16,346 nt of DNA from Promethearchaeota archaeon (GTDB lineage Archaea > Asgardarchaeota > Lokiarchaeia > Sigyniarchaeales > SOKP01), in NCBI GenBank assembly GCA_018238625.1, contig JABCSY010000093.1, positions 1 through 16,346 of the forward strand, in the 5' to 3' direction. Both the position numbers and the translations under genes were made by a program. Within the stretch, counting starts at the first letter, position 1. Every line of letters starts with the position of its first letter. The notes below the pieces were generated by a model. The model did no database searches, was not told where the DNA came from, and saw nothing but the letters and a program-made list of their open reading frames with translations. This document shows, piece after piece, positions 12,186 through 15,531 of this stretch.

Positions 12186-12208
12186 TTTTTTATTTCTTAC
12201 TTTTTCTT
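12186..12208 (+). terminator. T-rich terminator candidate after fwdA
   Basis: ttttttatttcttactttttctt directly after stop 12182. Confidence 0.45.
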
Positions 12209-12312
12209 AAAATCTTTCTATACACAATTATTTTACACTATCTTTACATCTAACAACTTAAAAAACTAAATAAGAGAAAACATTTAAATAACAGAAAATT
12301 AATAGTTATGGT

Positions 12313-12334
12313 AAAGTAAGACAAAAGTAAGACA
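12313..12334. repeat. Perfect 11-bp tandem direct repeat (AAAGTAAGACA x2), possible operator
   Basis: 12313-12323 and 12324-12334 are identical; one helical turn spacing; about 60 nt before the structured element. Confidence 0.6.
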
Positions 12335-12396
12335 CAACTTTTGAATTAAAATTTAAATCATGAATTAAAAAAAATAAAATAGGTAAATTTAACCAT

Positions 12397-12506
12397 GACT
12401 CCTGCACCGCCCTGGATTTTTGTCTTTTGGTAGTGCGTAAAGCACTTATCTAATACTCCCCCTATTTTGTTTTTGACCTTCTTATTAGGTCTTGGTCGCA
12501 GGAGTC
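12397..12506. ncRNA. Candidate structured non-coding RNA or cis-element of unknown family (strand uncertain, + slightly favoured)
   Basis: GC-rich island in an AT-rich spacer. GACTCCTGC-ACC (12397-12408) pairs with GGT-C-GCAGGAGTC (12494-12506), 12 bp with one bulge. Internal hairpins AGTGC-gtaaa-GCACT (12432-12446) and GACCT-tcttatt-AGGTC (12475-12491). Confidence 0.55.
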
Positions 12507-12715
12507 TCCCTTTTCACATTAAAGGTTTTTATTTTTTTTTAAAGGTTTTTAGAGAGATATTAATTATTTTAGAGCTTAATTTTAAAGAGATATTTAGATT
12601 TATTAGACAAATATTAAGATATCGTACTAAAATTTATATTATAAAGTCTCCTTTTTAAGCAGTAAAGCTATTTCGAAAATATATTCGTATAATCATTAAG
12701 TAAACGTCAAGTTCA

Positions 12716-13120
12716 ATGAAAGGGTTAAAGAAAAGGCGGGAGTTTAAAACTTCGCTTGAAGACTTGTTAAAAGATATTATGGATAATATCGAGGGTGTGA
12801 AAGCAGCGCAGCTTACGGCGGATACGGGTCAACCACTCGCATCTATACTACCTTCAAGTGCAGACGACATGCGATTAGCTGCCATGACTGCAGCACTTTG
12901 TTCATTGAGCGAACGTGCTATTGGAGAAATGGGTCTTGGCGAATTTGAACAATCGTACGTAAAAGGAAGTAAGGGATACTTATTGATTTTACATGCCGGG
13001 GAAGATAGAGTTTTAAGTGTGTCTACTACAAAAGACGTCAAGCTCGCGCCAATTTTGTATAAGCATTACAAACAACTAGAAGAGGGCGACGAAATAGTAA
13101 GTAGTACGCCACCTATTTAA
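12716..13120 (+). CDS. Roadblock/LC7 (MglB-like) domain protein
   Basis: GVKAAQL...G.PLAS.LP...D..RLAAMTAAL.SLSERA..EMG.GEFEQ.YVKG.KGYLL...AG...VL.V.T...VKL pattern; family is expanded in Asgard archaea. Confidence 0.9.
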   Translation: MKGLKKRREFKTSLEDLLKDIMDNIEGVKAAQLTADTGQPLASILPSSADDMRLAAMTAALCSLSERAIGEMGLGEFEQSYVKGSKGYLLILHAGEDRVLSVSTTKDVKLAPILYKHYKQLEEGDEIVSSTPPI

Positions 13121-15398: not shown

Positions 15399-15451
15399 GA
15401 TATTTTATACACCTTAATAGAGCGTACTATTAGCGATAAAAGGGGAATAAG

Positions 15452-15531
15452 AGCCAGCGATGGGATTTGCACCCATGATGCTGAAAGCAACGGCTCTGCA
15501 GGCCGCCTCCTTACTACTCGGATACGCTGGC
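15452..15531 (-). tRNA. tRNA-Cys(GCA) with a long variable arm; CCA not encoded
   Basis: Reverse complement: GCCAGCG TA TCCG AGTAGTA AGGA G GCGGC CTGCAGA GCCGT TGCTTTCAGCATC ATGGG TGCAAAT CCCAT CGCTGGC T (80 nt). 7-bp acceptor, 5-bp anticodon stem, anticodon GCA, G37, U73, 5-bp T stem. Confidence 0.93.

What the first reader, a model, noticed from the sequence alone, without database searches (positions are those of the whole stretch)
12397..12506. Unexplained ~110-nt multi-stem RNA-like element between fwdA and the Roadblock gene
Seen: a GC-rich closing stem of 12 bp with a single bulged C encloses two further hairpins (AGUGC-GUAAA-GCACU, extendable with a G-U pair on the + strand; GACCU-UCUUAUU-AGGUC), separated by two similar U-rich linkers (AUUUUUGUCUUUUG at 12416; AUUUUGUUUUUG at 12464), each followed by a hairpin. 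This gives an internally duplicated layout. T-tracts lie downstream on either strand (12526-12540 on +, 12367-12379 on -) and are near mirror images. I do not recognise it as tRNA, 5S, SRP, RNase P, C/D sRNA or a known riboswitch. Inference: a novel stand-alone small RNA, a leader element for the Roadblock gene, or a small palindromic mobile repeat.
Basis: partly seen in the sequence, partly recalled or inferred. Interest (0 to 1): 0.75.

Follow-up and report, generated by a model that had tools for sequence, protein, structure and literature searches.

The report
New folded small RNA gene, Lokiarchaeia
The flagged stretch is a real gene for a folded small RNA of about 118 bases from an uncatalogued family kept in nearly every genome of one family of Loki-type Asgard archaea, but its job is still unknown.

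Summary
Window 12397-12506 folds as described (-36.4 kcal/mol, z -5.2). It is one of three full copies in this genome of a roughly 118-125 nt element.

- **Distribution:** a covariance model found it in 122 of 131 other genomes of the same taxonomic family, at 1-16 copies each. It found it in 1 of 19 genomes of the sister families. The invariant 18-mer occurs almost nowhere else in a 400-genome phylum sample.
- **Structure:** all helices covary (96% of cells paired; 25 of 26 pairs change on both sides).
- **Strand:** 121 G-U pairs against 12 A-C pairs mark the + strand as the RNA.
- **Context:** gene neighbours and orientation vary, so this is a stand-alone gene, not a Roadblock leader or a mobile repeat.
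- **Excluded:** it has no Rfam match and is not tRNA, 5S, SRP or RNase P RNA.
- **Conserved cores:** CUGGAUUUUUGUCUUUUGG, which resembles an Sm site, and a C/U-rich loop containing CCUCC, which resembles an anti-Shine-Dalgarno sequence.
- **New here:** in about a quarter of loci, this window included, an A-rich stretch upstream is complementary to the 3' part of that loop.

Function and transcription are not shown. My best guess is a protein-bound trans-acting RNA. This scan met the same family before on other genomes (e1-5701596, e1-5517015, e1-5565162).

The parts
12397..12514 (+). Predicted mature small RNA (about 118 nt), from the first G of the closing stem to the U-tract
   Evidence: The covariance model match spans 12386-12513 at 144.3 bits. 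Conservation starts at -6 and ends after the UUU tail. The ends are inferred, not mapped.
12397..12408 (+). 5' strand of closing stem P1 (GACUCCUGCACC)
   Evidence: Fold. All 12 pairs of this helix show changes on both sides, with 95% of cells paired.
12494..12506 (+). 3' strand of closing stem P1 (GGU-C-GCAGGAGUC, bulged C at 12497)
12412..12430 (+). R1, the family-invariant core CUGGAUUUUUGUCUUUUGG
   Evidence: These columns are invariant in 56 copies. The 18-mer with at most 1 mismatch occurs in 126 of 134 family genomes and almost nowhere else in a 400-genome phylum sample. No complementary target exists in the genome. In silico it is either open or a weak GGAU/GUCU mini-hairpin.
12432..12446 (+). 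Hairpin 1 (AGUGC GUAAA GCACU)
   Evidence: All pairs covary: UA/CG, GC/AU and others.
12447..12474 (+). R2, an unpaired pyrimidine-rich loop. This copy has the short form ...UACUCCCCCUAUUUUGUUUUU; most copies carry AUUUCGCCCUCCUCCCCCUAUUUU.
   Evidence: Alignments. The predicted unpaired probability of the C-run is 0.92 over 74 copies. It contains CCUCC, as does the 16S 3' end GGAUCACCUCCU of this genome.
12475..12491 (+). Hairpin 2 (GACCU UCUUAUU AGGUC); absent in some lineages
   Evidence: All 5 pairs covary, with 98-99% of cells paired. It is absent in L143, L149 and L154.
12507..12514 (+). 3' tail UCCCUUUU, probable end of transcript
   Evidence: The consensus (U/A)CC(C/U)UUU is conserved in 121 copies and conservation stops after it. 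Termination at a U-tract is inferred from general knowledge of archaeal termination.
12367..12383 (+). Upstream A-rich stretch AAAAAAAAUAAAAUAGG, complementary to 12461-12474 of R2 (14 pairs, one G-U)
   Evidence: RNAduplex on upstream versus the post-R1 segment gives -15.5 kcal/mol for this copy and -14.0 for the R2b window alone. Duplexes of -12 kcal/mol or better occur in 20 of 78 locus groups, against 4 of 78 with the upstream sequence reversed. It is not family-wide, and whether it is transcribed is unknown.
12348..12357 (+). AAAATTTAAA, a candidate BRE/TATA element
   Evidence: Similar A(n)TTTAAA motifs lie upstream of the 16S gene and several tRNA genes of this genome. They also lie 28-43 nt before the A-rich stretch in many copies. 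This is inferred only, and no fixed spacing to the stem was found.

Best explanation
Window 12397-12514 (+) is a stand-alone gene for a folded small non-coding RNA of about 118 nt. It belongs to an uncatalogued multi-copy family confined to one taxonomic family of Lokiarchaeia.

Architecture (shown): a long GC-rich closing stem joins the two ends. Inside it lie the invariant U-rich segment R1 (CUGGAUUUUUGUCUUUUGG), a covarying hairpin, an unpaired C/U-rich loop R2, an optional second hairpin, and a short CCYUUU tail.

Mechanism (inferred): the RNA acts in trans as a ribonucleoprotein. R1, which resembles an Sm site and lies between two helices, would be the docking site for a conserved protein, most likely one of the four LSm/Sm-like proteins of the genome. 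The exposed pyrimidine-rich R2, which contains an anti-Shine-Dalgarno-like CCUCC, would pair with purine-rich RNA such as GGAGG-type ribosome-binding sites.

In some paralogues, this one included, an A-rich 5' leader or an inserted G-run can pair with the 3' part of R2. That could mask the loop or guide folding.
For: Shown:
- The fold is far better than shuffles.
- There are 3 full copies here.
- The model matches 122 of 131 other family genomes at 1-16 copies, and all 5 deeper-branching genera tested separately.
- On 101 diverse copies, 96.0% of cells are paired against 78.7% in shuffles. Both sides change in 25 of 26 pairs, 400 cells are compensatory against 94 expected, and slid controls give 23-47%. 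Results on 65 copies are similar.
- There are 121 G-U against 12 A-C cells, so the + strand is 96.0% paired and the - strand 91.7%.
- Downstream genes are co-oriented in 27 locus groups and opposed in 21; upstream genes in 25 and 28.
- Conservation begins 6 nt before the stem and ends after the UUU tail.
- No conserved peptide exists: the ATG is present in 80 of 121 copies and R1 is read in at least two frames.

Bearing on mechanism (weaker):
- R1 is invariant while everything around it varies.
- R1 has no complementary genomic target with up to 3 mismatches, apart from its own antisense strand and 3 scattered chance-like sites. That favours a protein partner or tertiary contact.
- R1 contains GAUUUUUGU, which matches the eukaryotic Sm-site consensus AAUUUUUGG quoted in PMC5587771 (passages read) at 7 of 9 positions.
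- Four LSM-domain genes are present. One of them, the 113-aa protein on C7, is 71-90% identical across the family but only 33-42% to the best match in the sister family.
- The R2 C-run is predicted unpaired (0.92).
- The 16S 3' end is ...CACCUCCU, and AGGTG/GGTGA/GGAGG are enriched 15-27 fold before start codons.
Against: - Transcription, RNA ends and strand are not shown by RNA data. The four runs laid are assembled contigs from relatives and prove nothing.
- The Sm-site match is imperfect, and thermodynamic folding puts part of R1 in a weak mini-hairpin.
- No Rfam snRNA model matches.
- The LSm correlation is only phyletic. Family genomes have mostly 4 LSM matches and the five sister-family genomes have 3 each.
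- Shine-Dalgarno-like motifs precede only about 3-9% of long ORFs, and no specific R2 target was found.
- R2 is variable in the deepest genera.
- The alignments used for pair counts were fitted to the model's structure, which favours it.
Confidence: 0.55

Rival explanations
1. It is a structured RNA gene, but it works through a different partner or chemistry. It could be a scaffold or decoy for a non-Sm RNA-binding protein that recognises U-rich or C-rich single strands, for example a KH-domain factor of 16S 3'-end maturation or the cleavage/termination factor. It could also be a small ribozyme or a ligand-binding RNA whose invariant R1 forms a tertiary core.
For: An invariant 19-nt core with covarying helices around it is also the signature of catalytic or ligand-binding cores. 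R2 resembles the 16S 3' end plus trailer: CCUCCUAUUUAUUU against CCCCCUAUUUUAUUU. The upstream complement would form a pseudoknot-like fold together with the closing stem.
Against: The U-rich composition of R1 is unusual for known catalytic cores (general knowledge). No Rfam ribozyme or riboswitch model matches even at E up to 10. No consistent neighbouring gene points to a ligand or pathway. The mimicry idea fails for the 16S 5' end.
Confidence: 0.25
2. It is a cis-acting 5' leader or attenuator of the downstream gene: Roadblock here, and the radical-SAM (tetraether-synthase-like) gene at the ancestral locus.
For: Here the element is co-oriented with the Roadblock/LC7 gene 203 nt downstream. 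At the most widespread locus it lies 211-766 nt upstream of a co-oriented radical-SAM gene in 20 loci. It contains U-tracts that could act as attenuators.
Against: By locus group the downstream gene is co-oriented in 27 and opposed in 21, which is no bias. Distances range from 33 to 455 nt. Downstream genes are unrelated, forming 101 neighbour clusters. A conserved CCYUUU tail ends the conserved block.
Confidence: 0.07
3. It is a small palindromic mobile or repeat DNA element (MITE-like), and the fold is a by-product of terminal inverted repeats.
For: It is multi-copy (1-16 per genome), has terminal inverted repeats, folds well on both strands, and has degenerate fragments at C175 and C121.
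Against: The arms differ between copies yet stay complementary within each copy. G-U pairs are tolerated on one strand only, 121 against 12. The internal hairpins covary too. No target-site duplication is visible in the flanks. Each paralogue keeps its place among orthologous neighbours across species. No transposase is associated.
Confidence: 0.05

Closest known systems
Sm-class snRNAs (Sm site between stem-loops) and SmAP/LSm- or Hfq-bound small RNAs
   Same: It has a single U-rich tract, GAUUUUUGU, that matches the AAUUUUUGG consensus quoted in PMC5587771 at 7 of 9 positions. The tract is set between two helices. The RNA is small and stable-looking with paired ends and a U-tail, and LSm genes are present in the genome.
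   Different: There is no sequence or structure homology to any Rfam snRNA. The invariant block is 19 nt, far longer than an Sm site. No binding data exist. The family is confined to one archaeal family. No spliceosomal context is known in archaea (general knowledge).
C-rich-loop regulatory sRNAs that pair with ribosome-binding sites (e.g. actinobacterial 6C, staphylococcal RsaE type; names recalled, not tested)
   Same: It has an exposed C/U-rich loop with a CCUCC/CCCCC run complementary to GGAGG-type sequences.
   Different: Those are bacterial families with C-rich hairpin loops. Here the C-run lies in a long junction strand, only a minority of genes carry SD-like motifs, and no target was found.
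Y RNAs (Ro60 RNPs)
   Same: It is about 100-120 nt, with 5' and 3' ends paired in a long stem carrying a single bulged nucleotide, a large pyrimidine-rich internal region, and a 3' U-tail (resemblance recalled from general knowledge).
   Different: The genome has no TROVE/Ro60 gene (0 matches), and there is no Rfam Y_RNA match.
BHB-flanked circular small RNAs of Hermod-type Asgard archaea
   Same: These are also stand-alone Asgard small-RNA genes with a covarying stem that presents an invariant pyrimidine-rich loop (unchecked notes).
   Different: The closing stem here has only a one-nucleotide bulge and no bulge-helix-bulge. No joint could be tested.

Membership tests
Any Rfam 15 family | Covariance-model match at or near the gathering score | tested here: not met
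   Over the whole window at gathering threshold, only tRNA at 15452-15531 matched. Over 12200-12720 at E up to 10 there were 4 matches of 11-18 bits, all with E of 4.8 or more.
Sm-class snRNA / Sm-site RNA | Single-stranded Sm site (AAUUUUUGG consensus) flanked by stem-loops | tested here: inconclusive
   R1 has GAUUUUUGU (7 of 9 positions) between P1 and hairpin 1. Predicted unpaired probability is high only for the UUUU runs.
Sm-class snRNA / Sm-site RNA | Bound by a heptameric Sm/LSm ring | not testable with these tools
   Four LSM-domain genes are present. No RNA-protein prediction or data are available.
Sm-class snRNA / Sm-site RNA | Homology to U1, U2, U4, U5 or U7 | tested here: not met
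   No such Rfam match at E up to 10.
Y RNA | Ro60 (TROVE) partner encoded in the genome | tested here: not met
   PF05731 gave 0 matches in a 97.9% complete genome, and the control rang in Deinococcus.
5S rRNA | Match to RF00001 and three-way junction with helices II-V | tested here: not met
   The element gives no RF00001 match. A separate, divergent 5S-like gene lies on contig C165.
tRNA / tRNA-like | Cloverleaf found by ARAGORN or RF00005 | tested here: not met
   Searches find only tRNA-Cys at 15451-15531.
C/D-box or H/ACA guide sRNA | Conserved C/D boxes, or an ACA box 3' of the stem, plus complementarity to rRNA or tRNA | tested here: not met
   No Rfam match. The ACA after the stem in this copy is not conserved in paralogues. 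No complement of R1 was found in the genome, which includes the 16S gene; the 23S gene is not in the assembly. Box consensus sequences are recalled.
MITE / palindromic repeat | Terminal repeats conserved in sequence, target-site duplication, variable insertion sites | tested here: not met
   The arms covary, G-U pairs occur on one strand only, no duplication is visible, and loci are orthologous across species.
Cis-regulatory leader / riboswitch | Constant orientation and association with a downstream gene class | tested here: not met
   The downstream gene is co-oriented in 27 locus groups and opposed in 21, and the downstream genes are unrelated.
BHB-processed circular RNA | Two 3-nt bulges on opposite strands separated by a 4-bp helix | tested here: not met
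   The closing stem has a single 1-nt bulge or mismatch. Circular joints could not be tested.

The most novel reading that the evidence does not exclude
The family is an archaeal Sm-class RNP RNA. Its invariant site, between two helices, would load a family-specific LSm ring (candidate: the 113-aa LSm paralogue on contig C7). A pyrimidine-rich guide loop would then select purine-rich RNA targets. That would make it a prokaryotic counterpart of the snRNP 'domain A' design in the closest relatives of eukaryotes. In some paralogues a self-complementary 5' leader would gate the guide.
Probability: 0.15. Interest if true: 0.85.

Novelty: new member of a known kind. Interest (0 to 1): 0.6.

Why it matters
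Very little is known about non-coding RNAs of Asgard archaea, the closest prokaryotic relatives of eukaryotes. My four searches of the paper library turned up no description of this family.

This RNA is kept in nearly all genomes of one Lokiarchaeial family, often in several diverged paralogues. It carries a 19-nt stretch that has not changed while the rest of the molecule was remodelled, so it must have a conserved partner. If that partner is an LSm ring, the family would give an experimentally tractable archaeal model for how Sm-site RNPs are built and used.

Even if it is not, the family should be added to RNA catalogues so that these GC-rich islands stop being read as unexplained intergenic features. 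The alignments and model made here define what to probe for.

Tried and rejected
- **RNA evidence:** seven runs held 5-11% of the sampled words. I laid four (X1, X2, X3, X6), all as assembled contigs. One contig covers 12400-12522 and another 12240-12439, both from relatives or paralogues. This gives no verdict on transcription, ends or strand.
- **Target search for R1:** with up to 3 Watson-Crick mismatches, the only hits were the antisense strands of the three genes plus three scattered sites. The scan allowing G-U gave 5468 hits and is uninformative.
- **Target search for R2:** 45 G-rich sites showed no pattern, and GGGGG is not enriched before start codons.
- **'Is it the missing 5S rRNA?':** RF00001 finds nothing in this genome, but a divergent 5S-like gene exists elsewhere. 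Rejected.
- **'Mini pre-16S mimic':** R1 does not resemble the 16S 5' end. Rejected.
- **AAAATAGGG as a general promoter element:** 73 occurrences against 54 expected genome-wide. Rejected.
- **Fixed-distance TATA box:** no positional signal was found upstream of the stem, and the A-rich motif lies 11-56 nt from it.
- **Micro-ORF MTPAPPWIFVFW:** not conserved.
- **Ro60:** absent.
- **RNase P and SRP RNAs:** present elsewhere in the genome.
- **23S rRNA:** not found with RF02540 in this or two related assemblies, so complementarity of R1 to 23S could not be tested.
- **BHB processing:** no such motif is present.
- **Paper searches:** searches gave search listings only and found nothing on this RNA. 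PMC5587771 was read in passages.

Full report
**1. Observation**

- A closing stem pairs GACUCCUGCACC (12397-12408) with GGU-C-GCAGGAGUC (12494-12506), leaving C12497 bulged.
- Two hairpins lie at 12432-12446 and 12475-12491.
- U-rich stretches begin at 12416 and 12464.

The + strand folds at -36.4 kcal/mol. Dinucleotide shuffles average -20.1 (sd 3.1), giving z -5.24, and 0 of 200 shuffles fold as well. The - strand also folds well (z -4.95).

The element sits in a 533-nt gap between two + strand ORFs. The downstream ORF (12716-13120) carries a Roadblock/LC7 domain.

**2. Not a known RNA**

- Rfam 15 at gathering thresholds finds only a tRNA at 15452-15531 in the window.
- With E up to 10 over 12200-12720, there are four junk matches of 11-18 bits.
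- ARAGORN finds only tRNA-Cys.
- RNase P RNA (115 bits) and an SRP RNA (54 bits, below its cut-off but full length) lie elsewhere in the genome.
- RF00001 (5S) finds nothing in this genome, and passes its cut-off in only 1 of 41 family genomes of at least 95% completeness. I therefore asked whether the element could be the 5S rRNA. It is not. Weak 30-33-bit 5S hits in three relatives have a homologue on contig C165 of this genome, with recognisable 5S segments (19 bits). The element itself gives no 5S match.

**3. A gene family**

*Copies in this genome.* The genome (4.29 Mb, 32% G+C, 201 contigs) holds three full copies: C61 (this window), C106 and C13. They are 76-84% identical. Degenerate fragments lie on C175 and C121.

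*Spread by BLAST.* BLAST found the element in 24 of 24 congeneric genomes and 1 of 16 genomes outside the genus.

*Spread by covariance model.* I built a model from the three paralogues with a hand-set structure. It matched 122 of 131 other genomes of the same family (f1) at 1-16 matches per genome. It matched 1 of 14 in f2, 0 of 1 in f3 and 0 of 4 in f4. The non-matching f1 genomes are mostly incomplete. Five genomes of the most divergent genera all matched, with 5-12 matches each.

*Spread of the invariant 18-mer.* With at most one mismatch, TGGATTTTTGTCTTTTGG occurs in 126 of 134 f1 genomes of a 400-genome phylum sample. Outside f1 it occurs in 1 of 14 f2 genomes and in two others (one mismatch each). 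That is the level of the reversed-pattern control, which hit about a dozen genomes.

*The single f2 hit.* It lies on a 1.8-kb contig of a 1150-contig assembly, and I cannot tell whether it is mis-binned.

I did not test it.

**4. Structure and strand**

| Measure | 101 diverse copies | Control |
|---|---|---|
| Cells forming a standard pair | 96.0% | 78.7% in shuffles; 23-47% with the 3' partner slid |
| Pairs with a change on both sides | 25 of 26 | 18.4 in shuffles |
| Cells with a change on both sides | 400 | 94 in shuffles |

On 65 copies from the genus sample, 95.8% of cells pair and 24 of 26 pairs change on both sides. Every helix covaries: the closing stem, a 3-bp extension, hairpin 1 and hairpin 2.

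One caveat applies. Both alignments were fitted to the model. The compensatory changes are nevertheless plain in the raw sequences. The closing stem reads GACUCCUGC.., GAUUUCCC.., GAUCCUUGC.. or GGGAAAUCUG.., each with its own complement.

G-U pairs number 121, against 12 A-C cells that would be G-U on the other strand. The + strand is therefore 96.0% paired and the - strand 91.7%. This names the + strand as the RNA.

Conservation begins 6 nt before the stem (AAccAU, then G; a pyrimidine-purine step at -1/+1). It ends after a (U/A)CC(C/U)UUU tail. My predicted RNA is therefore 12397 to about 12514.

**5. Stand-alone gene**

I scored neighbours for the 91 copies that had enough flanking DNA. 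The neighbouring ORFs fall into 101 clusters.

The most widespread, probably ancestral, locus has two features:
- a divergent membrane-protein gene upstream (26 loci);
- a co-oriented radical-SAM gene with an HMPTM-type zinc ribbon downstream (20 loci).

This is the C106 copy, not the window's. The window's locus (fwdA-like / Roadblock) is shared by only three of those copies (L009-L011).

Counted by locus group, downstream genes are co-oriented in 27 and opposed in 21. Upstream genes are co-oriented in 25 and opposed in 28. A leader role is therefore not supported.

The 12-codon ORF MTPAPPWIFVFW that overlaps the stem and R1 is not conserved. The ATG is present in 80 of 121 copies, and R1 is read in at least two frames.

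A mobile-repeat reading is contradicted by three points:
- the covariation;
- the strand-specific G-U pairs;
- the stable orthologous positions of each paralogue.

**6. What is conserved**

*R1.* R1 (CUGGAUUUUUGUCUUUUGG, 12412-12430) is invariant in nearly all copies, even where stems and loops are wholly different. Three copies carry a hairpin insertion inside R1 but rebuild the motif behind it (L147, L151, L162).

*R2.* R2 is a pyrimidine-rich junction strand.
- Most copies read AUUUCGCCCUCCUCCCCCUAUUUU(A/G)UUU.
- The window's subfamily has the shorter ...UACUCCCCCUAUUUUG.
- The deepest genera keep only a C/U-rich tract.

*In silico pairing.* The C-run is unpaired (probability 0.92 over 74 copies). 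R1 is half open, with a weak GGAU/GUCU mini-hairpin that presents UUUU. Because R1 is invariant, covariation cannot decide.

*R1 targets.* R1 has no complementary site in the genome other than its own antisense strand and 3 scattered chance-like sites at 3 mismatches. This argues for a protein partner or a tertiary role rather than an antisense guide. The 23S rRNA is not in the assembly, so that target remains untested.

**7. Mechanism, inferred**

*R1 as an Sm-type site.* R1 contains GAUUUUUGU between two helices. The Sm-site consensus of eukaryotic snRNAs is given as AAUUUUUGG in PMC5587771 (passages read), so the match is 7 of 9 positions.

*LSm genes.* The genome encodes four LSM-domain proteins of 85, 94, 113 and 128 aa. 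In the order sample, f1 genomes show 2-6 LSM matches, mostly 4, and the five f2 genomes show 3 each. The 113-aa paralogue is found in 37 of 40 other f1 genomes. It is 71-90% identical in most and about 52% in one genus. The best f2 matches are 33-42% identical, in 5 of 9 genomes. This is a phyletic hint only.

*R2 as an anti-SD-like strand.* R2 carries CCUCC, like the 16S 3' end GGAUCACCUCCU of this genome. AGGTG, GGTGA and GGAGG are enriched 15-27 fold at -18 to -6 of 2537 long ORFs, but only about 3-9% of genes have such motifs. No specific R2 target emerged.

*Working model.* I propose a protein-bound, trans-acting RNA. R1 would be the protein platform, and the pyrimidine-rich loop would pair with purine-rich RNA. 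None of these steps is shown.

**8. A feature not in the earlier notes: an upstream complement**

In this window, AAAAAAAAUAAAAUAGG (12367-12383) can pair with CCUAUUUUGUUUUU (12461-12474) over 14 pairs, one of them G-U.

*Frequency.* Of 111 copies with CCUA in R2, 52 have UAGG within 100 nt upstream. In most of these, 8-10 of the 10 flanking positions pair.

*Covariation.* By my reading of the listing:

| Loop base after UAUUUU | Upstream partner | Copies |
|---|---|---|
| A | U | 21 |
| A | A | 2 |
| A | C | 0 |
| G | C | 11-12 |
| G | U | 4 |

*By locus group.* Counting one copy per locus group, 20 of 78 groups have a duplex of -12 kcal/mol or better. The same upstream sequence reversed gives 4 of 78 (Wilcoxon p about 1e-5).

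*Limits and variants.*
- The feature is concentrated in the window's genus and part of a second genus, so it is not family-wide.
- The copies are related, so independent events are few.
- The motif lies 11-56 nt from the stem, so it is not a fixed-distance TATA box.
- It is not a general promoter word of the genome: 73 occurrences against 54 expected.
- An A(n)TTTAAA motif resembles those before the 16S and tRNA genes. It lies 28-43 nt further upstream in many copies, and at 12348-12357 here. This would put the transcription start near or before the A-rich stretch.
- Copies that lack the upstream motif but carry an insertion in R2 bring a GGGG next to the C-run (L028, L030, L031, L065).

*Reading.* Together these points suggest that in some paralogues the 3' part of R2 is paired in cis. 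With the closing stem, that pairing would form a pseudoknot. I rate this at roughly even odds. 5'-end mapping would settle it.

**9. Expression**

The one run search found seven runs holding 5-11% of the words of a 1401-nt stretch. Four were laid, and all are assembled contigs. One contig (labelled probably DNA) covers 12400-12522 with one difference and then diverges. An RNA-library contig covers 12240-12439 with differences. These come from relatives or paralogues. They show neither transcription nor ends.

**10. Comparison and novelty**

The family works most like Sm/LSm- or Hfq-type small RNAs and like C-rich-loop regulators. It is a member of none of them: no Rfam match, no Ro60 gene for a Y-RNA reading, and no BHB for the circular Asgard RNAs noted earlier.

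Four searches of the paper library found no description (listings only). Subscription journals and closed supplements were not searched.

The same family was met three times before in this scan on other genomes. Those notes reached the same core reading. What I add:
- the strand call from G-U counts;
- the orientation statistics;
- the exclusion of 5S, Ro60 and a micro-ORF;
- the anti-SD-like reading of R2;
- the candidate LSm paralogue;
- the upstream complement.

**11. Verdict**

This is a real, uncatalogued structured small-RNA gene. I put the gene itself at about 0.9 and the proposed mechanism at about 0.35. Interest is 0.6: a conserved multi-copy RNA with an invariant Sm-site-like core in Asgard archaea is worth bench work, but function and expression are still open.

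Noticed in passing
own genome contig C165:~3439-3540 (locus L209:140-241); relatives L173-L175: The 5S rRNA of this family escapes Rfam. RF00001 finds nothing in this 97.9%-complete genome and passes its cut-off in only 1 of 41 family genomes. A 5S-like gene with the hallmark segments scores 19-33 bits, and about 17 model positions of the helix III/loop C region are missing.
   Followed up: partly
own genome G000; relatives G104, G075: RF02540 (archaeal LSU rRNA) gave no match in any of the three assemblies, one of them a single contig. Either the 23S genes are unassembled or the first-look filter misses them. The SRP RNA (C176:962-1274) also scores only 54 bits against a cut-off of 96.5.
   Followed up: no
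own genome C7:45952-46290 (-): This 113-aa LSm-domain paralogue is 71-90% identical in most genomes of the RNA-bearing family (about 52% in one genus). Its best matches in the sister family are only 33-42% identical. It is a candidate partner by phyletic pattern only.
   Followed up: partly
window 12395-12433 (+): The 12-codon ORF ATG..TAG (MTPAPPWIFVFW) overlaps the closing stem and R1. The ATG is present in 80 of 121 copies and R1 is read in at least two frames, so it is not a conserved peptide.
   Followed up: yes
own genome C175:~67740-67800 (-) and C121:~16830-16916 (+): These are degenerate partial copies of the element: a 5' half with a decayed R1 next to a tRNA gene, and a 3' part that keeps the GACAGGAGUCUCCCUUUU end.
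   Followed up: partly
loci L147, L151, L162 (R1) and L028, L030, L031, L065, L068 (R2): These lineage-specific variants carry an extra hairpin inserted inside R1 (the motif is rebuilt behind it) or inside R2. In four of the five R2 variants (L028, L030, L031, L065) the insertion places GGGG next to the C-run; in L068 the match ends before that point.
   Followed up: partly
window 15451-15531 (-): tRNA-Cys (GCA) gene, 54.7 bits with RF00005. It is the only catalogued RNA in the window.
   Followed up: no
window 12467-12658 (+): This 63-codon TTG ORF starts inside the element. It has no Pfam match and is most likely spurious.
   Followed up: partly
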